DNA from: a virus
Virus record (IMG/VR): IMGVR_UViG_3300015371_000015
Span: 15,661-79,660 of that record
Reading direction: 5' to 3' (one strand)
DNA: 64,000 nucleotides
The notes under the pieces were generated by a model. It was given only the letters and a program-made list of their open reading frames with translations, made no database searches and was not told the origin of the DNA. Shown here piece by piece: positions 5,524 to 49,200 of this stretch. The position numbers and the translations under genes were made by a program. How positions within the stretch are numbered: the first letter of the stretch is position 1; each line of letters starts with the position of its first letter.

Positions 5524-5856
5524 ATGGCGCGCTTCTTCGGCAAAGTAGGGGTTGAACTACCCGGAACTAATGTCGACGGTGTGTGGACGGCACCGGTTGA
5601 AGAGCGTGACTATTACGGAGACGAGATCAGCGCATTGCGTTCGCTTGAATCGTCCGACAAGGTCAATGATGACTATCGGTTGCAGAACCGAATCAGCATC
5701 GTGGCCGACGTGGGCGTTGATCTCGTCTCCAAAATCAAGTACGTCTCGTTGCATGGGACTAAGTGGATCGTAAACTCAGTCGAGTACGATCGCCCCCGTC
5801 TCATCCTCTCGCTGGGAGGTGTATACCATGGCCCGACCCCGGATAATTCTCCATGA
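5524..5856 (+). CDS. Head-to-tail stopper/connector
   Basis: 110 aa after capsid; GTKWIVNSVE..RPRLILSLGGVY pattern; synteny. Confidence 0.7.
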   Translation: MARFFGKVGVELPGTNVDGVWTAPVEERDYYGDEISALRSLESSDKVNDDYRLQNRISIVADVGVDLVSKIKYVSLHGTKWIVNSVEYDRPRLILSLGGVYHGPTPDNSP

Positions 5857-6139
5857 GAAGCTAGCAATAGCTCTGGGCAACCGCGATGAAGTGCACTTCC
5901 AGCCTCCTGAGGATGCCAAGATGGGGGACCCATGCATTGTGTATGAGCGAGACGATGCTTCTATCGATTACGCGGACAATCTCCCGTATCGGGACGCGCT
6001 TCGCTATCAGGTCACGCTCATGACCAAGAATCCGGACAGCGACGTCTATAAGGAGCTTCAGAAGCTTCCTTACTGTCGTTTCCAACGGCACTTTGCGACG
6101 TCCGGTCTCAACCATGACGTCTTCGTGATTTACCACTAG
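5828..6139 (+). CDS. Tail terminator
   Basis: VHFQPP..PCIVYER..YADN..YQVT pattern; precedes major tail. Confidence 0.7.
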   Translation: MARPRIILHEKLAIALGNRDEVHFQPPEDAKMGDPCIVYERDDASIDYADNLPYRDALRYQVTLMTKNPDSDVYKELQKLPYCRFQRHFATSGLNHDVFVIYH

Positions 6140-6152
6140 GAGGAATCCAAGC

Positions 6153-7028
6153 ATGACTAAGCTCACTTGGGACCAGACCGGCCAGCGTCTCTACGAGACC
6201 GGCGTCGATCACGGTGTCCTGTACATCCCGGACGTTTCGGGTAACTACTCCGACGGAGTGGCCTGGAATGGTCTGACCACGGTCACGGAATCGCCTTCGG
6301 GCGCCGAGGCCAACGCCCTGTACGCCGACAACATCAAGTACCTGAACCTGGTCTCCGCGGAGGAGTTCGGCGCGACGGTCGAGGCGTACATGTACCCGCC
6401 GGAGTTCGGCCAGTTCGACGGCACGGCTATGCCCGTCGTCGGTCTGTCGGTCGGTCAGCAGGCTCGCAAGATCTTCGGCCTGTGCTACCGCACCCGCCTC
6501 GGCAACGATGTCGAGGGTTCGGACTACGGCTACAAGCTGCACCTCATCTACGGCGCCCAGGCGGCTCCGTCGGAGAAGGCGTACGCTTCCATGAACGACT
6601 CGCCTGAGGCGATCACGTTCTCGTGGGAGCTCACGACGACTCCCGTATCGGCCGGAGACGACCTCAAGCCGACCTCCCAGATCGTCATCGACTCCACTCA
6701 GGTGGACTCCGACACTCTGGCGGCTCTCGAGGTCATCCTCTACGGCTCGACCGGCGTGGAGCCCCGGCTTCCGCTGCCCGAAGAGGTCATCGGCATGTTC
6801 ACCGAGACGCTGCCGACCGTCGAGACCGTGGAGCCGAGCTACAACGCGGCCACCGACACCATCACCTTCCCCGACGTCACCGGAGTGATCTACTCGGTGG
6901 GCGGCGTGGACAAGGCGCCTGGTTCGACCATGGTCATCACCGAGGACACCGTTGTCGAGGCACGTCCGGCTGCCGGTTTCCGGTTCACCGAGACCTCGGA
7001 CAACGACTGGACGATCGAATACAGCTGA
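6153..7028 (+). CDS. Major tail (tube) protein with C-terminal Ig-like extension
   Basis: RBS AGGAGG; YETGVDHGVLY, AWNGLT, YADNIKY, GYKLHLIYG. Confidence 0.9.
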   Translation: MTKLTWDQTGQRLYETGVDHGVLYIPDVSGNYSDGVAWNGLTTVTESPSGAEANALYADNIKYLNLVSAEEFGATVEAYMYPPEFGQFDGTAMPVVGLSVGQQARKIFGLCYRTRLGNDVEGSDYGYKLHLIYGAQAAPSEKAYASMNDSPEAITFSWELTTTPVSAGDDLKPTSQIVIDSTQVDSDTLAALEVILYGSTGVEPRLPLPEEVIGMFTETLPTVETVEPSYNAATDTITFPDVTGVIYSVGGVDKAPGSTMVITEDTVVEARPAAGFRFTETSDNDWTIEYS

Positions 7029-38135: not shown

Positions 38136-38950
38136 ACTCGACTGAGCGAGTCTAAATAGGCCTTAAGCTCAGAGCGGCCCTCTTCGGAGGGTGTGGACTG
38201 TCTGGCGAGACAGAACTTTCTCAGCGAAACTGATCTGGCATACCGGAATCCGGCGTGCTTGCGGGAGTAGGTGTACAACTGAGGATTGGTTAAACAAAAA
38301 CACGTGGTGGCAAGTTCGAGGCAGCCCTGGAGTTGGCCGCTAAGCAGTCGGGTCTCCAGCCCTCTCGGTCTCTGACTCTTCATAGAGAAGAACCGAGGCA
38401 CTACCACCGCTCGCCCAGCACCTGAGGCGTGCAATAAACGGGGTGGCCCCAGTATCAGGCCATGTCAAAAGGCACCCCACCTTGACGTATGTCATATTTG
38501 TTAGAGACCTAGGAGGTGAGAGCGATGCAAGCCCGAGGGTTGTAATCACCCTCCTACAAGTCAACATAGTCTTGGTCATGGCAAGGACCCCCATTACGAT
38601 GGTAAGGCCCCTCCCATGATCATATTCGCATGGAGGCACTACACTCCGTGCGGCAAACCCGTCCCCTACAAACACCCAAGCTTCCGCATAGACGGTCATG
38701 AACGTAAAAGCGGACTGCTGAACTCTAGTGAGCCCAGACAACCTGCGTAGCGGCTTTATGTGGCGCCATCAGGAATCTGCAAGCCTAGAGCAACTGGAGC
38801 GGCCCATAGTGGCCTGGTTACAAATGCACGAGACAAGCACACCGGTCAGGTTAATGTATCCATATTCGTTGTGAATCACTGGACTAAACTGAACCGCGTA
38901 CATGAGGTGAGCTGCCACCATGGTTGATTCCAAGCGCAGTGAAGTTTAAG
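38136..38950 (+). ncRNA. Candidate large (~800 nt) structured ncRNA, or cluster of ncRNAs
   Basis: No credible + strand ORF; dense hairpins (ccctc-ttcg-gaggg, ctgtc/gacag, gtggtgg/ctaccac, ggggtg/cacccc, taggagg/ctccta, ctctag/ctagag, taaact/agttta). Confidence 0.6.
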
Positions 38951-38955
38951 CATTA

Positions 38956-39086
38956 CCCGTTCGGGTCGAATGCAGTCGGTTAACTTGAGTTATTGGTTCG
39001 AGTCCAATATGCCTTCTTTGAGGGCATTGGCGCAATTGGCAGCGCAAAGTACATAAAACCCGGCAGCACCCTTACATCCGAACGGG
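38956..39086 (+). ncRNA. Y RNA 1 (YrlA-like; permuted T arm, acceptor hairpin, D arm)
   Basis: cccgttcgg/ccgaacggg stem; GGGTCGAA/ACATCC; T loop TTCGAGT; D arm TGGCGCAATTGGCAGCGC; directly upstream of Ro60. Confidence 0.88.
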
Positions 39087-39115: not shown

Positions 39116-40888
39116 ATGACCACGACTGACCCGTACGCGGGTTTCGGTACGCGACAGACCCACCAGCAGCACCGTGCTCCCGACCGACCGGAGCAGGTCA
39201 AGAACAACGCCGGCGGCTACGTCTTCCAGATCGATCCCCTGACCCAGCTCAAGCGGTTCCTGACCATCGGGACCGTCGGGGGATCCTACTACGTCGGCGA
39301 GAAGGAACTGACCCGTGAGAACGGTGAGATGATCCTGAGCTTCACGCGCAACCCCACCACGCACGCCCAGCTCGTCGACACCATCGTCGAGATCAGTCTC
39401 GCGGGCCGTGCACCCAAGCAGAACCCCACGCTGTTCGCCTTGGCCATCGCGTGCCAGCACGGCGACACCGCTTCCAAGCAGTACGCGCGCAAGCAGCTCA
39501 CGAAGGTCGTCCGCACCGGTACCCACCTGTTCCTCTTCGTGGGTTACGTCCGGCAGTTCGGTGGCTGGAATCGTGGCATGCGGCGTGCAATCGGTGCGTG
39601 GTACTCCGAGAAGGACCCGGACAAGCTGGCCTACCAGCTGATCAAGTACCGGCGTAGGAACGACCTCACCCACCGTGATGTCTTGCGGATGGCTCACCCG
39701 AAGATCAAGATGGACGAGGTCAACGAGCGGATCGCCATGCTCGATGCCGCGTTCCGGGCGAACGAGGACGACCCGAACACCAAGGAGCTCATGGCGGATG
39801 CTCTTCGGGCTCGCAACGAGCGGCTGAAGCTCCGGTCGAACATCGACTGGACCATCAAGTACCAGAACCGGGACTACTCGGCGCTGGAGGGTGGAACCTC
39901 GAAGATCATCGAGGCGTTCGAGGCCTGCTGGCGTGAGCCGGAGAACATCCCGGCAATCATCAGCGACAACCCGGGGCTCCCCTGGGAGGCCTTGCCGGAC
40001 GAGGCTCTGACCAAGGTGGAGACGTGGGACCGGCTGCTGGACAACGGCATGCCCATCCACGCTCTGCTGCGTCAGCTCCCCCGTCTGACCAACCTCGGGA
40101 TGCTGCCTCCGATGGGGGCCGGGCGTACGGACGATGTCATCCACCAGCTCCTGAACCGTGAGGCGCTGGAGAGGGCTCGGATGCACCCGATCAACGTCCT
40201 GGTGGCGCTCAAGACCTATGCCTCCGGGCAGGGCGAGCGCAACCACTGGTCGCCGAACACCAAGATCATCGACGCGCTGGACGAGATGTTCTACCGCTCG
40301 TTCGGTTTCATCGAGCCCACAGGCAAGCGCATCTTGCAGGCCTGTGACATCTCGTACTCGATGATGGGAGCGAGGACCTTCGGTGGGAAGAAGCCTTTCC
40401 CGCTCTCACCGGCTGAGATCACCGGTGCGATGGCGTTGGCGACGGCTCACATCGAGCCCAACCACCACATCGTCGGGTTCTCCTCGCTCTCGGGGCAGAA
40501 CAACCGGGATCCGCGGGACTCGAAGCTGATCGACCTCAACATCAGCAAGCGGCAGCGCATGGACGACGTCATCAACACGATGTACAACCGGACCTTCGGT
40601 GGTACGGACGTCGCGCTGCCCATGGTCGCCGCCTTGGAGCACGGGTGGAAGATCGACACGTTCGTGATCTACACGGACAACGAGACCTGGCACGGGGATA
40701 TTCATCCTCACCAGGCGCTCGAGCGTTACCGCCGGCAGACCGGAATCGACGCACGCCTCGTGGTGTGTGCGATGTCTGCCTCCCACTTCAGTGTGGCCGA
40801 CCCGAAGGACCCCCGTCAGCTCGACATCAGCGGCTTCGACAGCGCGATGCCTCAGCTGATCTCGGAGTTCTCGGCCGGCAACATCTGA
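39116..40888 (+). CDS. rsr: Ro60/TROVE-domain RNA-binding protein (Rsr ortholog)
   Basis: QVKNNAGGYVF, LKRFLTIGT.GGSYY, RTGTHLF, YQLIKY..R..THRDVLR.AHP; vWA MIDAS DISYSM, GGTD, YTDNETW; GFDS; RBS GAGGAG. Confidence 0.96.
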   Translation: MTTTDPYAGFGTRQTHQQHRAPDRPEQVKNNAGGYVFQIDPLTQLKRFLTIGTVGGSYYVGEKELTRENGEMILSFTRNPTTHAQLVDTIVEISLAGRAPKQNPTLFALAIACQHGDTASKQYARKQLTKVVRTGTHLFLFVGYVRQFGGWNRGMRRAIGAWYSEKDPDKLAYQLIKYRRRNDLTHRDVLRMAHPKIKMDEVNERIAMLDAAFRANEDDPNTKELMADALRARNERLKLRSNIDWTIKYQNRDYSALEGGTSKIIEAFEACWREPENIPAIISDNPGLPWEALPDEALTKVETWDRLLDNGMPIHALLRQLPRLTNLGMLPPMGAGRTDDVIHQLLNREALERARMHPINVLVALKTYASGQGERNHWSPNTKIIDALDEMFYRSFGFIEPTGKRILQACDISYSMMGARTFGGKKPFPLSPAEITGAMALATAHIEPNHHIVGFSSLSGQNNRDPRDSKLIDLNISKRQRMDDVINTMYNRTFGGTDVALPMVAALEHGWKIDTFVIYTDNETWHGDIHPHQALERYRRQTGIDARLVVCAMSASHFSVADPKDPRQLDISGFDSAMPQLISEFSAGNI

Positions 40889-40900
40889 GTACGTAGAGAA

Positions 40901-41040
40901 GCAGGGCCGGGTCGAAGATGATCGGTTAACTGGATAACATTGGTTCAATCCCAATCCAGGTCTGGGCCCACAAGCCTGCCTGGCTCGCCACTTCGGTGGC
41001 AGATGAAAACATCCGGTCGTCACCCCACATCCGGCCCTGC
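40901..41040 (+). ncRNA. Y RNA 2 (T arm, acceptor-like stem, cUUCGg hairpin in D position)
   Basis: gcagggccgg/ccggccctgc; GGGTCGAA..ATCGGTTA; attgg-ttcaatc-ccaat; ACATCC. Confidence 0.85.
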
Positions 41041-41082: not shown

Positions 41083-41343
41083 ATGCCAAATCCCGACCGC
41101 CCGTTCAAGATCAGTGACCATGCCCGAACCAAGATGAGTTTGCGCGCGATTACGAAGGACGAAGTGTTCGACACCATCCTCGCCTACGAGAAGACAGACA
41201 AGAAGAGTAACCAGAAGCGTTATTTCAAAGGACGTCTTTGCGTAGTCGTGGGAGAAGGTCGCACCTTCGACACCATCATCACCGTGCTCCTCAACGAGTT
41301 CGACACATGGACTGATCACCACGCAAGAGATCGCAAGAAGTAG
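41083..41343 (+). CDS. DUF4258-like small protein (predicted RelE/colicin-like RNase fold)
   Basis: ISDHARTKMSLRAITKDEV...LCVVV...IITV pattern; own motif 41044, RBS AGGAGG, terminator 41349-41383. Confidence 0.65.
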   Translation: MPNPDRPFKISDHARTKMSLRAITKDEVFDTILAYEKTDKKSNQKRYFKGRLCVVVGEGRTFDTIITVLLNEFDTWTDHHARDRKK

Positions 41344-41412
41344 TACCCAAGCCTCACCCCGTTTCCACAAGGGGTTAGGTTTCGCTGCGGTCGCGAGGAA
41401 AACAACGCTTGT

Positions 41413-41488: not shown

Positions 41489-41625
41489 CAGCTCTGGGTC
41501 GAAGATGCATCGGTTATCAAATTGCCAGGGAGAAATCCCACCCCCCTAGATAGGCTAATTACCTATCGACTTACTGATCACACTATTAGTAAGCAAACCG
41601 GTCATCACCTCTACATCCAGAGCTG
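41489..41625 (+). ncRNA. Y RNA 3 (divergent three-hairpin payload)
   Basis: cagctctgg/ccagagctg; GGGTCGAA, ATCGGTT/AACCGGT, ACATCC. Confidence 0.83.
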
Positions 41626-41635
41626 CCTAAATTTC

Positions 41636-41709
41636 GATGCGGGTCGCTAGTCTTCGGTTATCAAACTCTCAATTTGAAGCCATCCGGAGACGTCAACCAC
41701 ATCCGCATC
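41636..41709 (+). ncRNA. Y RNA 4 (minimal; displays anticodon stem-loop Glu-CUC)
   Basis: gatgcgg/ccgcatc; gtcttcgg/ccggagac; tcaaa-CTCTCAA-tttga. Confidence 0.82.
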
Positions 41710-41717
41710 ACCTAAGA

Positions 41718-41822
41718 CGGACCTTGGGCTATAGCAGGCGGCCCTTGGACGAAGGCCTCTAGGATACCGTCCAGAAGAGGACCAAGGCCGGTCGGGATGA
41801 CCTCCCGCGGTATCCAAGTCTG
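41718..41822 (+). ncRNA. Unclassified structured RNA between Y RNAs 4 and 5
   Basis: cggac/gtctg, cggcc-ttgg/ccaa-ggccg, tggacg/cgtcca, cctct/agagg, ggataccgt/gcggtatcc. Confidence 0.45.
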
Positions 41823-41835
41823 CCCCCTAAGCTTC

Positions 41836-41976
41836 AGCGACGTGGGTCGAAAGAGAATCGGTTAACTTTCCTCTCAAGAAAAAGACCCGGGTTCGAATCC
41901 CGGCGGGTGCATAGCACCTGTAGTTTAGTGGCCTAAAACTCAAAACATCGGTCCTCACCACTACATCTACGTCGTT
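41836..41976 (+). ncRNA. Y RNA 5 containing a complete circularly permuted tRNA-Glu(CUC) mimic
   Basis: Anticodon arm tttc-CTCTCAA-gaaa; T arm ccggg-TTCGAAT-cccgg; acceptor cgggtgc-ata-gcacctg; D arm gttt-agtggccta-aaac. Confidence 0.9.
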
Positions 41977-41985
41977 TAGTTTTGT

Positions 41986-42126
41986 GTCAGAGCGGGTCGA
42001 ACTGGAATTCGGTTACCTCTGCGGAAGGAGTATTGTCGGTTCGAGTCCGGCCGTCCCCGTTAGGGGATGTAGTGTAATTGGCAACACGCTAAAATCCCGG
42101 AATCCTCCCTTTACATCCGCTCTGAC
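41986..42126 (+). ncRNA. Y RNA 6 containing a circularly permuted tRNA mimic with Arg-GCG loop
   Basis: cct-CTGCGGA-agg; T arm gtcgg-TTCGAGT-ccggc; acceptor cgtcccc-gtta-ggggatg; D arm gtgt-aattggca-acac. Confidence 0.88.
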
Positions 42127-42141
42127 CCATATTTGCACAAC

Positions 42142-42224
42142 CCTGTTCGGGTCGAATTGAATCGGTTATCATTCGACTGCTAATCGGAAACCGACGCCGG
42201 TTCAAACCCCTACATCCGAACAGG
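42142..42224 (+). ncRNA. Y RNA 7 (minimal; displays anticodon stem-loop Ser-GCU)
   Basis: cctgttcgg/ccgaacagg; ttgaatcgg/ccggttcaa; ttcga-CTGCTAA-tcgga. Confidence 0.85.
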
Positions 42225-46271: not shown

Positions 46272-49200
46272 TCGCGTTCAGAACAACGCCTTTAATAGGA
46301 GTACCTACCCCAAGGAGATTCGAATGAACAAGAGAAGATTTCTGATCGCTGCCACTGCAGCCATCGTCGGAGTCATCGTCCATCGGAACCTCAAGACCAG
46401 CACGCCCACCGTCCTGGAGCCCCCGGAACTTTCCCCGGAGCTTCAGAAGTGGGTGGACTACGTCGACGAGTACCCGAACCTGGAAGACGACCCGAAGATC
46501 GCACGCGCCATCGAAGTCCTCAACGAGACCGAAGACCCCGAGTAGTACCAAGCCCGCCCCGAAAGGGGTTAGGGTTTCTCGCGGATATTTCAACGGCTTA
46601 GATGAGATACCCATCCAGAAGGAGTAACACAATGACCAAGATCGTTGCTTTCTGCCTGATCCTTGCCGCCCTCGTCATGGGCACCCGCTACGTCAACGAA
46701 GTGGTCGACCAGTACAACACGCTGTCCCCGACCGCCAAGATCTACACGTACACGTGGTGCCAGAGTGACATCGGCGTCAAGGACTTGCAGGACCACATCG
46801 ACTGCGCCATCCTCAACGTCCTCTGATCCATCCAAGCCCGCCCCGTTTCCACAAGGGGTTAGGGTTTCGCAACTGCTTATATTTTTGCCTTCGCGGTGCT
46901 AACAACGGCTTAAATGAGACTATCCCATCTACCAAGGAGACAACTATGTTGCCCTACGAGATCAAGCCCTTCGCCGACCACCACAGAGAAGAGCTGGAGA
47001 AGGTACACAAGTTCCTTGACCTCATCCACCAGTCCTTCACGTCAAACGTCGTTGGCATCAGCGCCGAAGACGTACTGGCTGAGATGGACCGAGTTCAGAA
47101 CGCTCGTGAAGCCCTTCGCCGGTTCGAGATCTGCATGGCAGACGAAGTCCAGCAGAAGATCCGCATGCGCGACCGCTGGTTCGAAGCCACTGGCAAGAAC
47201 AAGCCGTAGCCTCAGACCCGCCCCTATATTCTAGGGGTTAGGGTTTCGCGAGTGAAACACCGCCTTAAGTGAGACCCTATCTAAGGAGACACCATGCCTA
47301 CACCCAAAGTGCACTGGCGTTGTGCCAACGTCGATGAACCCACGTGCATCATTCCCAATCCAAATCGGGAATACATCACGACGGACGACCCGACGAAGGT
47401 CACTTGCAAGAAGTGCATCAACGGCATATTCTTCCCGAACCACAGGGAGATTCGAAATTACTGAGCTAGGCCCTTTCGAGGGCTTAGTTTTTGCTCTCTG
47501 ATCGCGTAGGAAACAATGCATATAATGACACCTACACCATTCAGGAGACCACAATGTTCAACGACGTTTGCGGTAACTGGACCGTCTACCACAGCCTCGC
47601 CGTTTCGCTCTTCGTCGGAATGAGCATCTTCACCGGTAGCAGTGTGCTGATCGCCATCAACGAATGGCTCGCACGCCGCGCCGACAAGAAGCTCGCCAAG
47701 AAGAACGAGCAGCAGCCCGTGGTCGTCGACCCCGACACCGCCTACAACCACGCCATTCACGGCATCTGACATGTAGACAACCCGCCCCAGCATATCTAGG
47801 GGTTAGGGTTTCGCGTAGGTAACAACTCCTTAAATGAGATACCCATCCATAAGGAGAAGCCAATGAACATCTTCGACCTCTTCATCGCCTACATCCAGCT
47901 ACTGAGCCACGTGTTCCCGTACGCCGTCGTGTTCTGCCTGGGGTACTTCTTCTGCGACCACCAGTCCAAGAAGCAGTCCCGCCAGAGCAAGCGCCACGCC
48001 GTCGACGCATACGTCGCACAGTTCCCGGCTGTCAGCCGCCGAGAAGCCAAGAAGCTCATCACGTCCGACCCCATCCAGTAGTACCTCAGCCCTGCCCCAG
48101 CATTTCTAGGGGTTAGGGTTTAGTCTCCTCGCGGAGGGAACAACTCATATAATGAGATCCCATCCATTCTACGAAGGAGACCACAATGACACGCACGACC
48201 ATTCGCACCGTCGGTCGTGGCGCCAGCCAAGTGATCACCGGAACCGTCAAGAAGTTCCTGTGGTTCGTGCTGGGCGTCGCGCTCGCCGCTGCGTTGCTCG
48301 GAAGCCTCGTCATGGGCGTCATCATCAAGAACGTCTGATCCCAAGCCGTAATCCGCCATTCCCCCAGCGGGTTACGGTTTAGTTTCGCGCCTGAAACAAC
48401 GACTTAGATGAGACCCTATCCCAAAGGACATCATCTATGCACGCCATCCTCATCACCGAAGAGTCCATGCCCAAGATCATCAGCCGGGAACGAGCCCACC
48501 TCAATCTACAAGACCTAGTATTTCTGCAGACTTGTATCGGCAAAAACCGATATTTCGTCAGCGGGTACTACGACGGTAGGGGGAGGCTCGGCACCTGGAT
48601 GATGATGCCACAGCATGTTCTCGATAAGTCCTATGAGTACGACCCCGCCAAGATCCAAACCGATTGGGACCAGATCATCCGCAAAACGCCCAGCCCCTAG
48701 CCCAGGGGTTAGGGTTTCATTCATATCCGCATCAAAGGAGTAACACAATGTCCGATGAAACACCCACCAACGACGAGCCGACTCGCGAGCCGGTTCCCGA
48801 CTTCCACGCACCGAGAGACATGTCCAGGGGAGAATCCATATTCTTCTTCGGGTTCATCGCTGCCGCTGCCGCGACCATGGGCGCCATCGTCGTCTCTGCG
48901 ATCAAGCAGGAGAGGCGCGAGGAGGAGGCCTACCAGCTTGCTCAGCAGCAGAAGCGGGAAGCCAAGCAGGCGCTCGAGACGTGGGTCAACGACGAGCAGA
49001 ACGCCGGCAACAACATCTACAAGCTGGATGACGGGCGCTTCCTGGCCGTCGACCGGCAAGCTCCTCAGACCACCCACCTGCCGCGGGAGATCGTGGAGAC
49101 GATCCAGAACCGGAACGTCGTCTAGGCGTAGGGACGGGTTCGCGCATATTTCCACTCCTTATATGAGAGATCCCACCAAGGAGGTTTTATGTGAATGACC

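What the first reader, a model, noticed from the sequence alone, without database searches (positions are those of the whole stretch)
41636..42224. Y RNAs that display anticodon stem-loops: candidate decoys for anticodon nucleases
Seen: directly after CGGTTA, four elements carry 7-nt loops with the canonical C32-U33-NNN-R37-A38 pattern: CTCTCAA (Glu CUC) at 41666-41672 and 41871-41877 in different stems, CTGCGGA (Arg GCG) at 42019-42025, and CTGCTAA (Ser GCU) at 42177-42183. Y4 and Y7 contain essentially only this arm. Known: described YrlA domains mimic D/T/acceptor arms and, as I recall, lack an anticodon loop; host defence and toxin RNases (PrrC, RloC, VapC, MazF, PARIS AriB) cut tRNA anticodon loops. 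Inference: these Ro-stabilised RNAs cannot be aminoacylated and could sponge tRNA-cleaving defences, or titrate synthetases or modification enzymes.
Basis: partly seen in the sequence, partly recalled or inferred. Interest (0 to 1): 0.92.

Follow-up and report, generated by a model that had tools for sequence, protein, structure and literature searches.

The report
Anticodon-like arms on phage Y RNAs
Four of the seven Y RNAs beside this soil phage's Ro60 gene carry a hairpin that looks like a tRNA anticodon arm; the same feature recurs across this RNA family in phages and cells, which makes these RNAs near-complete rearranged tRNAs, but nothing here shows they act as decoys for tRNA-cutting enzymes.

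Summary
All four 7-nt loops sit at the stated coordinates, directly after the conserved CGGUUA of YrlA-type Y RNA modules Y4-Y7. These flank a phage Ro60 gene (39116-40888).

The hairpins are the 'V' stem-loop that Chen et al. 2014 called a less-conserved variable arm. A structure-blind covariance model found 263 unique modules in about 120 Ro60 loci.
- 41 of 97 unique V segments have a stem of at least 3 bp closing a CU-NNN-RA loop. Shuffles gave a mean of 0.47 and a maximum of 4.
- An ungapped alignment of the modal length class (n=43) reads as tRNA positions 27-48: covarying 30-40 and 31-39 pairs, C32, U33 (86%), R37 (91%), A38 (81%), then an A-G-G-U-Y variable loop and the T arm.
- The triplet is free: 20 different 'anticodons' occur, and position 35 varies most.

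The feature also occurs in cellular genomes and cultured actinophages, so it is family-wide and not phage-specific.

Best reading: a retained anticodon arm of a circularly permuted tRNA body, selected for loop architecture, probably as a protein handle.

The decoy idea remains untested. Hughes et al. 2020 already floated a related version for YrlA.

The parts
38956..39086 (+). Y1: full tRNA-like Y RNA module (T arm, closed acceptor-like stem, D arm). Its V position holds a 4-bp/UUGA tetraloop, not an anticodon-like loop.
   Evidence: 98.8 bits with model R1
39116..40888 (+). Ro60 gene (TROVE plus Ro60 vWA domains). The true start is the ATG at 39116; the listed ORF start at 38993 overlaps Y1.
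40902..41039 (+). Y2: Y module with a T-arm-like hairpin and other hairpins, without an anticodon-like V loop.
   Evidence: 57.6 bits
41083..41343 (+). 86-aa ORF matching DUF4258, embedded in the array. In L031 the two corresponding modules lie 24 nt apart, leaving no room for it.
41489..41625 (+). Y3: Y module with a non-tRNA payload of three hairpins. One is a 6-bp stem with the 7-nt loop CUAAUUA at 41555-41561, which has U rather than a purine at the position-37 equivalent.
   Evidence: z -6.0
41634..41711 (+). Y4: minimal Y RNA made of the Ro-binding stem, a second helix and one terminal hairpin. Stem 41661-41665/41673-41677, loop CUCUCAA 41666-41672.
   Evidence: (32.8 bits)
41837..41975 (+). 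Y5: full permuted-tRNA-like module. Anticodon-like arm 41866-41882 (loop 41871-41877), 4-nt linker, T arm, 7-bp closed acceptor-like stem, D arm.
   Evidence: YrlA 27.2 bits; the tRNA model aligns this hairpin to its anticodon arm, 21.4 bits; 105 bits
41987..42125 (+). Y6: full permuted-tRNA-like module. Anticodon-like hairpin 42016-42028 (loop CUGCGGA 42019-42025), T arm, 7-bp closed acceptor-like stem, D arm.
   Evidence: YrlA 24.5 bits; 112 bits
42142..42224 (+). Y7: minimal Y RNA derived by a deletion of about 58 nt from a full module. Stem 42172-42176/42184-42188, loop CUGCUAA 42177-42183. The remnant of the T arm (GGUUCAAAC) now pairs with the 5' strand.
   Evidence: (44.5 bits)

Best explanation
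The four hairpins are the 'V' stem-loops of YrlA-type Y RNAs. In this RNA family the V stem-loop is the counterpart of a tRNA anticodon arm, not of a variable arm. Read 5' to 3', a full module (Y5, Y6) has this order: outer stem with the Ro60-binding GGGUCG bulged helix; a second helix ending in CGG; UU; a 17-nt anticodon-like arm; a 4-5 nt variable loop (typically A-G-G-U-Y); the T arm; an acceptor-like stem closed by a small loop; the D arm; a linker; and the return strands of the two helices. This is a whole tRNA body, circularly permuted. It is opened between the D arm and the anticodon arm, where the Ro60-binding stem is attached, and closed at the acceptor end. Shown here: selection keeps the loop architecture (7 nt, pyrimidine 32, U33, purine 37, A38, covarying closing pairs) but not the triplet. 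Inferred: the loop folds as a canonical U-turn anticodon loop and serves as a generic tRNA-like handle for a protein that recognises anticodon loops, such as a modification enzyme, a nuclease or another tRNA-binding effector, while Ro60 holds the other end of the RNA. Minimal modules (Y4, Y7) keep only the Ro60-binding stem plus this arm. That suggests the arm has a use of its own, apart from stabilising the tRNA elbow.
For: Family membership and context: Ro60 is identified. Seven modules share the motif. YrlA sub-threshold hits fall on Y5 and Y6. Model R1 was built without any V structure and finds all seven modules. Its matches in the Ro60-oriented loci (L003-L007, L031-L168) are all on the Ro60 strand.
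Geometry: the distance from GGUUA to the T loop peaks sharply at 22-25 nt in 108 modules.
Loop signature: 41 of 97 unique V segments have a stem of at least 3 bp closing a CU...RA loop, against a shuffle mean of 0.47 and maximum of 4 in 500. Among all 256 possible loop-edge patterns the top three are CU..AA (27), CU..GA (14) and AU..GA (8). The signal survives clustering at 75% identity: 27 of 62 clusters have it.
Ungapped alignment, not fitted to any structure (n=43): pair 31-39 is formed in 91% of sequences with 4 pair types, pair 30-40 in 91% with 3 types. Sliding the 3' partner drops mean pairing from 65% to 27-47%. C32 63%, U33 86%, R37 91%, A38 81%. Variable loop: G45 81%, G46 95%, U47 79%, Y48 93%.
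Comparison with tRNAs: ARAGORN-called tRNAs in the same loci give C32 70%, U33 85%, R37 98%, A38 75%, and 48% are CU..RA.
tRNA finders agree: the Rfam tRNA model aligns Y5's hairpin to its anticodon arm. ARAGORN calls the 5' part of 13 Y-like modules in other loci as tRNAs; in the three calls drawn out, the V hairpin serves as the anticodon arm.
Orthologs keep the loop and change the stem: Y7 against L031:7629, and the Y5 group.
The triplet is free: 20 different triplets occur, and position 35 differs in 74% of related pairs against 23% divergence outside the V region.
Minimal modules: 8 of 43 have CU..RA loops, against 0.2 by shuffle.
Against: No RNA, probing or modification data exist for this phage, so the fold of the loops is inferred.
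The stem is usually only 3-4 bp. Position 27.43 is a conserved A.G (33 of 43) and never pairs, unlike the 5-bp stem of a real tRNA.
About 40% of V segments lack the signature; some have a short AAUCUG-type linker, a tetraloop or an 8-nt loop.
In the solved S. Typhimurium YrlA structure, which has no V hairpin, the Ro60-binding stem itself stacks where the anticodon stem would be. In three dimensions the V hairpin may therefore protrude like a class II variable arm, as Chen et al. drew it.
Sequences are phylogenetically related, so shuffle statistics overstate independence.
The loops end in GGA far more often than those of real tRNAs (28% against 7%), so they are not simple copies of tRNA loops.
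Confidence: 0.55

Rival explanations
1. Decoy or sponge. Ro60-stabilised Y RNAs present anticodon loops that bind, and perhaps absorb cleavage by, tRNA anticodon nucleases of host defence or toxin systems, or titrate modification enzymes or synthetases. This would protect the tRNA pool during infection or stress.
For: The loops have the architecture such nucleases recognise. The triplet is the most variable part, and arrays carry several different triplets, as expected under conflict-driven diversification. Minimal Y RNAs keep only this arm. This phage has no canonical tRNA gene of its own. Hughes et al. 2020 proposed YrlA as a competitive inhibitor of an anticodon nuclease and found YrlA itself not cleaved (PMC7790460). 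From general knowledge, Ro60 genes often accompany RtcB repair operons that are induced by nicked tRNAs.
Against: No binding, cleavage or phenotype data exist. The feature is equally present in cellular Ro60 loci from diverse phyla, so it is not a phage counter-defence invention. The stems are family-specific and constant whatever the triplet, so the arms do not mimic particular tRNAs beyond the loop. High variability of positions 34-36 is equally expected if the triplet is simply unconstrained. The host and its nucleases are unknown.
Confidence: 0.17
2. Evolutionary relic with a purely structural role. The hairpin is left over from the tRNA or dimeric-tRNA ancestor and now acts only as a variable-arm-like strut. 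Its loop signature persists through inertia or repeated exchange with neighbouring tRNA genes, and nothing reads it.
For: The dimeric-tRNA origin model is cited in bioRxiv 10.1101/312249. Ro60 loci commonly sit beside tRNA arrays, and L031 and L097 have a canonical-looking tRNA directly after a Y module. Many modules have lost the hairpin or changed it (Y1, Y2, Y3). Chen et al. describe V as less conserved.
Against: U33, R37 and A38 are kept at tRNA-like frequencies across phyla while positions 34-36 turn over. Inertia would erode all loop positions alike. The stems covary. Deletion derivatives keep exactly this arm. V arms share family-specific stems rather than matching neighbouring tRNAs; most are 4-6 mismatches of 17 from the nearest tRNA arm.
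Confidence: 0.2
3. Processed two-piece tRNA. RNase P cuts the closed acceptor loop and CCA is added, as in M. smegmatis YrlA. The result would have an acceptor end, D arm, anticodon arm and T arm, and could be aminoacylated or interact with the translation machinery.
For: Y5 and Y6 have 7-bp acceptor-like stems closed by loops of 3-4 nt. [quoted passage not shown] A full set of tRNA arms is present.
Against: A long Ro60-bound helix attached at the junction of positions 26 and 27 is hard to reconcile with ribosome entry. The triplets vary freely between orthologs, and stems are only 3-4 bp. Minimal modules lack an acceptor altogether. Chen et al. saw no such cleavage in Salmonella or Deinococcus.
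Confidence: 0.04
4. Pairing guide. The exposed triplet kisses complementary anticodon loops of tRNAs, or short sites in other RNAs. This would bring chosen RNAs to Ro60 and its associated exonuclease.
For: The triplets are diverse on a constant scaffold, and arrays hold several different ones. Stable anticodon-anticodon complexes are known from classical tRNA biophysics (general knowledge).
Against: No target was sought or found here. Three nucleotides give little specificity. Nothing in the data distinguishes this from free drift of the triplet.
Confidence: 0.04

Closest known systems
YrlA-type bacterial and phage Y RNAs (Chen et al. 2014, PMC4201824; Rfam RF02553)
   Same: Encoded beside Ro60 on the same strand. 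They share the 5' GNCGAA-type Ro60-binding motif, the conserved YUAY (here UUAU/UUAA/UUAC), the T arm, the closed acceptor-like stem, the D arm, and an optional 'V' stem-loop upstream of T. Mycobacteriophage examples are already published.
   Different: The published reading calls V a less-conserved variable arm and states that YrlA lacks an anticodon loop. Here V plus its linker has the length, covariation and loop signature of an anticodon arm plus a class I variable loop. This phage has seven modules, two of them reduced to that arm alone. Rfam scores are below the gathering threshold (27 and 24.5 bits against 69).
S. Typhimurium YrlA crystal structure (bioRxiv 10.1101/312249)
   Same: An L-shaped tRNA mimic with tRNA tertiary contacts. 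The conserved UA dinucleotide corresponds to the UA of CGGUUA here.
   Different: The Salmonella RNA has a 5-nt variable loop and no V hairpin, and its Ro60-binding stem occupies the anticodon-stem position. The spatial position of a V hairpin is unknown.
D. radiodurans Yrn1 'anticodon arm' (Chen et al. 2014)
   Same: A Y RNA modelled with a 5-bp stem in the anticodon-arm position.
   Different: Its loop has 6 nt rather than 7, its arm order differs, and the authors judge it to have evolved independently.
Circularly permuted and split tRNA genes of some algae and archaea (mentioned in bioRxiv 10.1101/312249; otherwise general knowledge)
   Same: All tRNA arms are present in rotated order, with the natural termini joined by a loop.
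   Different: Those RNAs are processed back into ordinary tRNAs. Here the opening lies between the D and anticodon arms and is extended into a Ro60-binding stem, and no canonical tRNA is detected.
Phage tRNAs that replace or evade host tRNAs cut by anticodon nucleases, and the YrlA competitive-inhibitor idea (Hughes et al. 2020, PMC7790460; the rest is general knowledge)
   Same: These involve phage- or operon-encoded tRNA-like RNAs in the setting of anticodon-loop cleavage.
   Different: Phage tRNAs are functional decoders. The Y RNA role is only a suggestion, and it was made for a YrlA without an anticodon-like loop.

Membership tests
YrlA-type Y RNA (Chen 2014; Rfam RF02553) | Encoded within about 4 kb of a Ro60 (TROVE) gene on the same strand | tested here: met
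   Ro60 lies at 39116-40888. All seven modules are on the + strand, within 160 nt upstream and 1.4 kb downstream of it.
YrlA-type Y RNA (Chen 2014; Rfam RF02553) | 5' GNCGAA(N0-1)G motif in a bulged helix closed by the 3' end | tested here: met
   GUCGAA(N0-1)G is exact in Y1, Y2, Y3 and Y5. Y6 and Y7 have two N, and Y4 has GUCGCUAG. Every module has a closing stem of 10-11 bp with a bulged C.
YrlA-type Y RNA (Chen 2014; Rfam RF02553) | Conserved T and D stem-loops with an acceptor-like stem-loop between them | tested here: met
   Present in Y1, Y5 and Y6. Absent from Y4 and Y7 (minimal modules) and replaced by other hairpins in Y2 and Y3.
YrlA-type Y RNA (Chen 2014; Rfam RF02553) | Score at or above the Rfam gathering threshold (69 bits) | tested here: not met
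   The best local hits are 27.2 bits (Y5) and 24.5 bits (Y6), covering only model positions 26-82.
YrlA-type Y RNA (Chen 2014; Rfam RF02553) | Conserved YUAY beginning the V region | tested here: met
   UUAA, UUAU or UUAC follows CGG in all seven modules and in nearly all homologs.
YrlA-type Y RNA (Chen 2014; Rfam RF02553) | Bound by Ro60 in vivo | not testable with these tools
   This needs immunoprecipitation or gel-shift experiments.
tRNA (RF00005) | Recognised as a cloverleaf by tRNA detectors, with free 5' and 3' acceptor ends | tested here: not met
   ARAGORN finds none in the window. The Rfam tRNA model gives 21.4 bits against a threshold of 29, in the window and in the whole phage. The acceptor-like stems are closed by loops of 3-4 nt.
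tRNA (RF00005) | Anticodon arm: stem closing a 7-nt loop with Y32, U33 and R37, followed by a 4-5 nt variable loop and the T arm | tested here: met
   The effective stem is usually 3-4 bp, because 27.43 is a conserved A.G mismatch.
Phage counter-defence decoy against anticodon nucleases | Restricted to, or enriched in, phages relative to cells | tested here: not met
   The same CU-NNN-RA V loops occur in Ro60 loci of cellular assemblies labelled Frankiaceae, Anaerolineae, Desulfonema, Thiotrichaceae, Chloroflexota and Planctomycetota, and in a Thermoplasmatota MAG.
Phage counter-defence decoy against anticodon nucleases | The loop matches the tRNA species attacked in the host, and the nuclease binds or is inhibited | not testable with these tools
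   The host is unknown (rhizosphere and soil metagenomes), and no biochemical data exist.

The most novel reading that the evidence does not exclude
Ro60-bound Y RNAs carry a quickly evolving, 'programmable' anticodon loop on a constant scaffold. Arrays such as this one would then be panels of different triplets, used either to soak up anticodon-loop-directed nucleases or modification enzymes, or to select particular tRNAs or RNAs for Ro60 and its associated exonuclease. That would give the long-unexplained tRNA-like domain of bacterial and phage Y RNAs a specific, sequence-addressed function.
Probability: 0.2. Interest if true: 0.85.

Novelty: new member of a known kind. Interest (0 to 1): 0.58.

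Why it matters
What the tRNA-like domain of bacterial and phage Y RNAs binds is still an open question.

This analysis shows that the so-called variable arm has the signature of an anticodon arm: a 7-nt loop, U33, R37, A38, covarying closing pairs, and a G46-U47-Y48 variable loop after it. The triplet itself is free to change. Most YrlA RNAs then become complete, circularly permuted tRNAs. That supports a tRNA origin for these RNAs and points to a specific surface to mutate.

The same feature is present in cultured, tractable systems:
- Mycobacterium phage Spud (Bxz1-like) on M. smegmatis
- Microbacterium phage FuzzBuster
- Streptomyces phage Quaran19

Loop-swap and loop-scramble experiments, modification mapping and nuclease competition assays are therefore feasible now.

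There is also a practical warning. ARAGORN called the 5' part of 13 Y-like modules in other loci as tRNAs, so some annotated phage 'tRNAs' may in fact be Y RNAs.

Tried and rejected
- DNA search of the array against the phage collection found no match.
The closest Ro60 relatives (up to 61% identity) could therefore not be fetched directly. The search for related loci gave L031 and L097 (55-57% identity) as the nearest arrays.
- Classifying V hairpins by whole-module MFE folds or by a 'best hairpin' rule was unreliable because alternative pairings compete. I replaced it with motif presence against shuffles, and with an ungapped length-class alignment.
- No RNA holder was listed among public runs.
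- Laying contigs of four rhizosphere and soil DNA runs showed the array without any differing letter. It is therefore not an assembly artefact, but this gives no information on loop micro-diversity.
- The Sim and Wolin review on bacterial Y RNAs is not held in the library, so I could not check whether it remarks on the V loop. No paper found by full-text search for 'YrlA' describes it.
- PHROGs gave nothing for the small neighbouring ORFs.
- The 130-nt spacer between Y4 and Y5 (41706-41838) has no Rfam hit and no significant fold (z -1.1).
- Direct derivation of V arms from neighbouring tRNA genes was considered and not supported: most V arms are 4-6 mismatches of 17 from the nearest tRNA anticodon arm. 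The zero-distance cases were ARAGORN calls placed on the Y modules themselves.
Full report
WHAT IS THERE

The window is part of a 79.7-kb IMG/VR virus record that CheckV rates as complete. It has about 57% G+C. The gene at 39116-40888 encodes a Ro60 protein with TROVE and Ro60-vWA domains. Its nearest relatives are 55-61% identical proteins from metagenomes, and actinobacterial TROVE proteins are about 47% identical. Among cultured phages, the Ro60 proteins of Microbacterium, Mycobacterium, Streptomyces and Gordonia phages are 34-46% identical.

Seven RNA modules on the + strand share the pattern GGGTCG...CGGTTA...ACATCC with complementary flanks. They are Y1 (38956-39086), Y2 (40902-41039), Y3 (41489-41625), Y4 (41634-41711), Y5 (41837-41975), Y6 (41987-42125) and Y7 (42142-42224).

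Rfam gives only sub-threshold YrlA hits to the T, acceptor-like and D part of Y5 and Y6 (27.2 and 24.5 bits, threshold 69). It also gives a sub-threshold tRNA hit (21.4 bits) in which the tRNA model aligns Y5's disputed hairpin to its anticodon arm. ARAGORN finds no tRNA in the window, and the tRNA family finds none above threshold in the whole phage.

CHECKING THE OBSERVATION

- In Y4 and Y7 the 5-bp stem with its 7-nt loop is the terminal hairpin of both the MFE and the centroid fold (z -4.0 and -3.6).
- In Y5 the stem is 4 bp and the MFE fold does not form it.
- In Y6 the stem is 3 bp and the MFE fold prefers a 4-bp/6-nt register. For Y5 and Y6 the evidence has to come from relatives.

WHAT THE HAIRPIN IS IN KNOWN TERMS

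Chen et al. 2014 (PMC4201824) describe YrlA RNAs encoded beside Ro60 in more than 250 bacteria and phages. These have a GNCGAA-type motif, nearly invariant T and D stem-loops, and an acceptor-like stem-loop. [quoted passage not shown] A conserved YUAY begins the V region.

The structure paper on S. Typhimurium YrlA, which has no V hairpin, states that YrlA lacks the anticodon loop and that the Ro60-binding stem takes the place of the anticodon stem. I found no remark in the searchable literature that the V loop resembles an anticodon loop. One relevant review is not held in the library.

COMPARATIVE TEST: DATA

I collected about 170 loci:
- Ro60 loci from viral contigs, metagenome contigs and species-representative genomes.
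- Loci found by a Y RNA sequence pattern.

I built a covariance model from 20 full modules, specifying only the closing stem and the T, acceptor-like and D helices. No structure was imposed on the V region. The model recovers all seven window modules and several hundred others. Its matches in the Ro60-oriented loci (L003-L007, L031-L168) are all on the Ro60 strand. There are 263 unique sequences in the non-redundant set.

COMPARATIVE TEST: RESULTS

- Geometry. In the 167 modules that have both GGUUA and a T loop, the distance between the two is bimodal. One group has 2-6 nt: a separate module class with the T arm directly after GGUUAUC. The other shows a sharp peak at 22-25 nt (108 modules, 97 unique V segments).
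- Loop signature. Of the 97 segments, 77 contain some hairpin with a stem of at least 3 bp and a 7-nt loop (shuffles 44 +/- 5). Of the 97, 41 contain one whose loop reads CU...RA (shuffle mean 0.47, maximum 4 in 500). No other loop length shows a comparable excess. Among all 256 combinations of the two first and two last loop letters, CU..AA (27), CU..GA (14) and AU..GA (8) lead.
- Redundancy. After single-linkage clustering at 75% identity, 27 of 62 clusters carry a CU...RA hairpin.
- Minimal modules. These show the same tendency more weakly: 8 of 43, against 0.2 by shuffle.

THE UNGAPPED ALIGNMENT

The most telling result needs no folding and no fitted alignment. The 43 unique sequences of the modal length class (24 nt) were simply stacked. 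In tRNA numbering they read as follows:
- Positions 27-31: A27, U28, C29, N30, N31.
- Loop: C32 (63%), U33 (86%), N34-N36, R37 (91%), A38 (81%).
- Positions 39-43: the 3' strand of the stem.
- Variable loop: A44, G45 (81%), G46 (95%), U47 (79%), Y48 (93%).
- Then the T stem.

Pairs 31-39 and 30-40 are formed in 91% of sequences, with four and three different pair types. Pairs 29-41 and 28-42 are formed in 77% and 67%. Position 27.43 is a conserved A.G and never pairs. Sliding the 3' partner by 1-3 columns lowers mean pairing from 65% to 27-47%.

ARAGORN-called tRNAs from the same loci (332 after removing calls that fall on Y modules) have C32 70%, U33 85%, R37 98% and A38 75%, and 48% are CU...RA. 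By these measures the V loop is as anticodon-like as a real anticodon loop. The linker behind it is a canonical class I variable loop.

It follows that the full modules are whole tRNA bodies in rotated order: anticodon arm, variable loop, T arm, acceptor stem closed by a loop, D arm. The Ro60-binding stem is attached where nucleotide 26 would join the D and anticodon arms. An earlier unchecked note of this scan (e1-6105030) proposed the same for Y5 and Y6, and my alignment supports it. The arrangement also fits the dimeric-tRNA origin model quoted in bioRxiv 10.1101/312249. One refinement follows: the anticodon arm of the upstream tRNA survives as 'V' rather than being absorbed into the stem.

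tRNA finders take the hairpin the same way. ARAGORN called the 5' part of 13 Y-like modules in other loci as tRNAs. In the three calls I drew out, the V hairpin serves as the anticodon arm on an otherwise poor cloverleaf.

ORTHOLOGS AND DISTRIBUTION

The closest arrays, L031 and L097, contain at least ten modules.
- L031:7214 matches Y5. Its loop is CUCACAA instead of CUCUCAA, on a stem of 5 bp instead of 4.
- L031:7484 matches Y6, with the same CUGCGGA loop and a 4-bp stem.
- L031:7629 matches Y7. It has the same CUGCUAA loop on a different stem, but it is a full tRNA-like module. Y7 has lost about 58 nt after GGUUCAAAC, and the leftover half of the T arm now pairs with the 5' strand.
- Across the wider Y5 group the loops read CU-(CUC, CAC, UAC, GCU, GCG, UCC)-AA.

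In all, 22 distinct CU...RA loops carry 20 different triplets. In 137 related pairs (which are not independent), position 35 differs in 74% of pairs and positions 34 and 36 in about 40%. U33 differs in 20%, A38 in 26% and G46 in 4%. Outside the V region divergence is 23%. The architecture is therefore kept while the triplet is free or diversifying.

The feature is not confined to phages. Ro60 loci in assemblies labelled Frankiaceae, Anaerolineae, Desulfonema, Thiotrichaceae, Chloroflexota and Planctomycetota, and in a Thermoplasmatota MAG, show the same loops. So do unannotated intergenic regions next to Ro60 in cultured phages:
- FuzzBuster: UCAC-CUGUUAA-GUGA.
- Spud: CUC-AUUGCAA-GAG, plus a minimal module with CUGUCAC.
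- Quaran19: UCUGU-CUAUGAA-ACAGA.

HOW IT MOST LIKELY WORKS

Shown: the position, length, covariation and loop signature of the arm, its retention in deletion derivatives, and the free triplet.

Inferred: the loop folds as a U-turn anticodon loop and is kept because something recognises anticodon-loop shape. The Y RNA would then present a complete tRNA surface (elbow plus anticodon loop) while Ro60 holds the other end. The present data cannot tell whether the partner is a modification enzyme, a nuclease or another tRNA-binding effector.

The 3' ends of the loops are mostly U36-A37-A38 (30%) or G36-G37-A38 (28%, against 7% in real tRNAs). From general knowledge, these are the contexts read by the t6A and m1G37 (TrmD) machineries. 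This is a lead, not a result.

THE DECOY HYPOTHESIS

The decoy hypothesis is compatible with the anatomy, with the variable triplets and with this phage's lack of tRNA genes. A related proposal exists for Salmonella YrlA (PMC7790460). However, the family-wide cellular distribution, the constant family-specific stems and the absence of any conserved triplet mean the comparative data do not favour it over a generic handle or an unconstrained triplet. I give it about 0.17.

Y5 and Y6 have 7-bp acceptor-like stems like M. smegmatis YrlA, which is cut by RNase P and receives CCA.

NOVELTY AND VERDICT

The array is a new, unusually large member of the known YrlA/Ro60 kind. What appears not to be described is that the 'variable arm' of this family is an anticodon-arm counterpart with tRNA-grade loop conservation and a free triplet. 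The functional claim is open.

LIMITS

- There are no expression or probing data.
- The sequences are related, so shuffle statistics overstate independence.
- About 40% of V segments lack the signature.
- The spatial position of the hairpin is unknown.

Noticed in passing
window 38136-38198 (+): A Pistol self-cleaving ribozyme matches at 60.8 bits (gathering threshold 34.5). It lies at the start of the roughly 800-nt ORF-poor stretch upstream of Y1 and Ro60.
   Followed up: no
window 41083-41343 (+): An 86-aa ORF matching DUF4258 (28.8 bits, threshold 25) sits inside the Y RNA array between Y2 and Y3. The titles of papers that mention DUF4258 concern BECR-fold ribonuclease toxins and RelE/ParE toxins. 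No adjacent antitoxin-like ORF was examined. In L031 the corresponding modules (5826-5966 and 5990-6130) lie 24 nt apart, so the cassette looks like an insertion here.
   Followed up: partly
loci L113, L067, L029, L131, L033, L069 and others: ARAGORN calls the 5' part of 13 Y-like modules as tRNAs (Thr, Lys, Ser, Arg, Pro and others). In the three calls drawn out, the V hairpin serves as the anticodon arm of a poor cloverleaf. Some annotated phage 'tRNAs' next to Ro60 may therefore be Y RNAs.
   Followed up: partly
L031 about 6575-6650 and L097 about 6540-6615: A canonical-looking tRNA with a CAU anticodon lies directly after a Y module inside the related arrays. Many Ro60 loci adjoin large tRNA arrays, for example 25 ARAGORN calls in L129 and 23 in L058. 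This window's phage has none.
   Followed up: partly
L040:3432-3569 and L116:3261-3397: The V hairpin has an 8-nt loop (CUUGCUAA) on the same CCA/UGG stem that carries 7-nt loops (CUUCUAA, CUUGUAA, AUUGUAA) in close relatives.
   Followed up: no
modal-class V arms in many loci; window Y5-Y7: Position 27.43 is a conserved A.G (33 of 43) that never pairs. V loops end in GGA four times as often as real tRNA loops from the same contigs (28% against 7%). Neither is explained.
   Followed up: partly
window 41357-41385 and 46841-46870: A 29-nt terminator-like hairpin sequence after the DUF4258 ORF recurs at 97% identity 5.5 kb downstream. It may belong to the repeated cassette punctuation noted by other first-stage notes on this genome.
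   Followed up: no
window 41549-41567 (within Y3): Y3's payload includes a 6-bp stem with the 7-nt loop CUAAUUA. It is anticodon-like at positions 32, 33 and 38 but has U at position 37, and it does not sit in the V position.
   Followed up: no
ARAGORN tRNA calls across loci L003-L200: About 15% of the tRNAs called in these Ro60-linked loci have C rather than U at position 33 by ARAGORN's numbering. This could be a real peculiarity of these tRNA arrays or an offset artefact.
   Followed up: no
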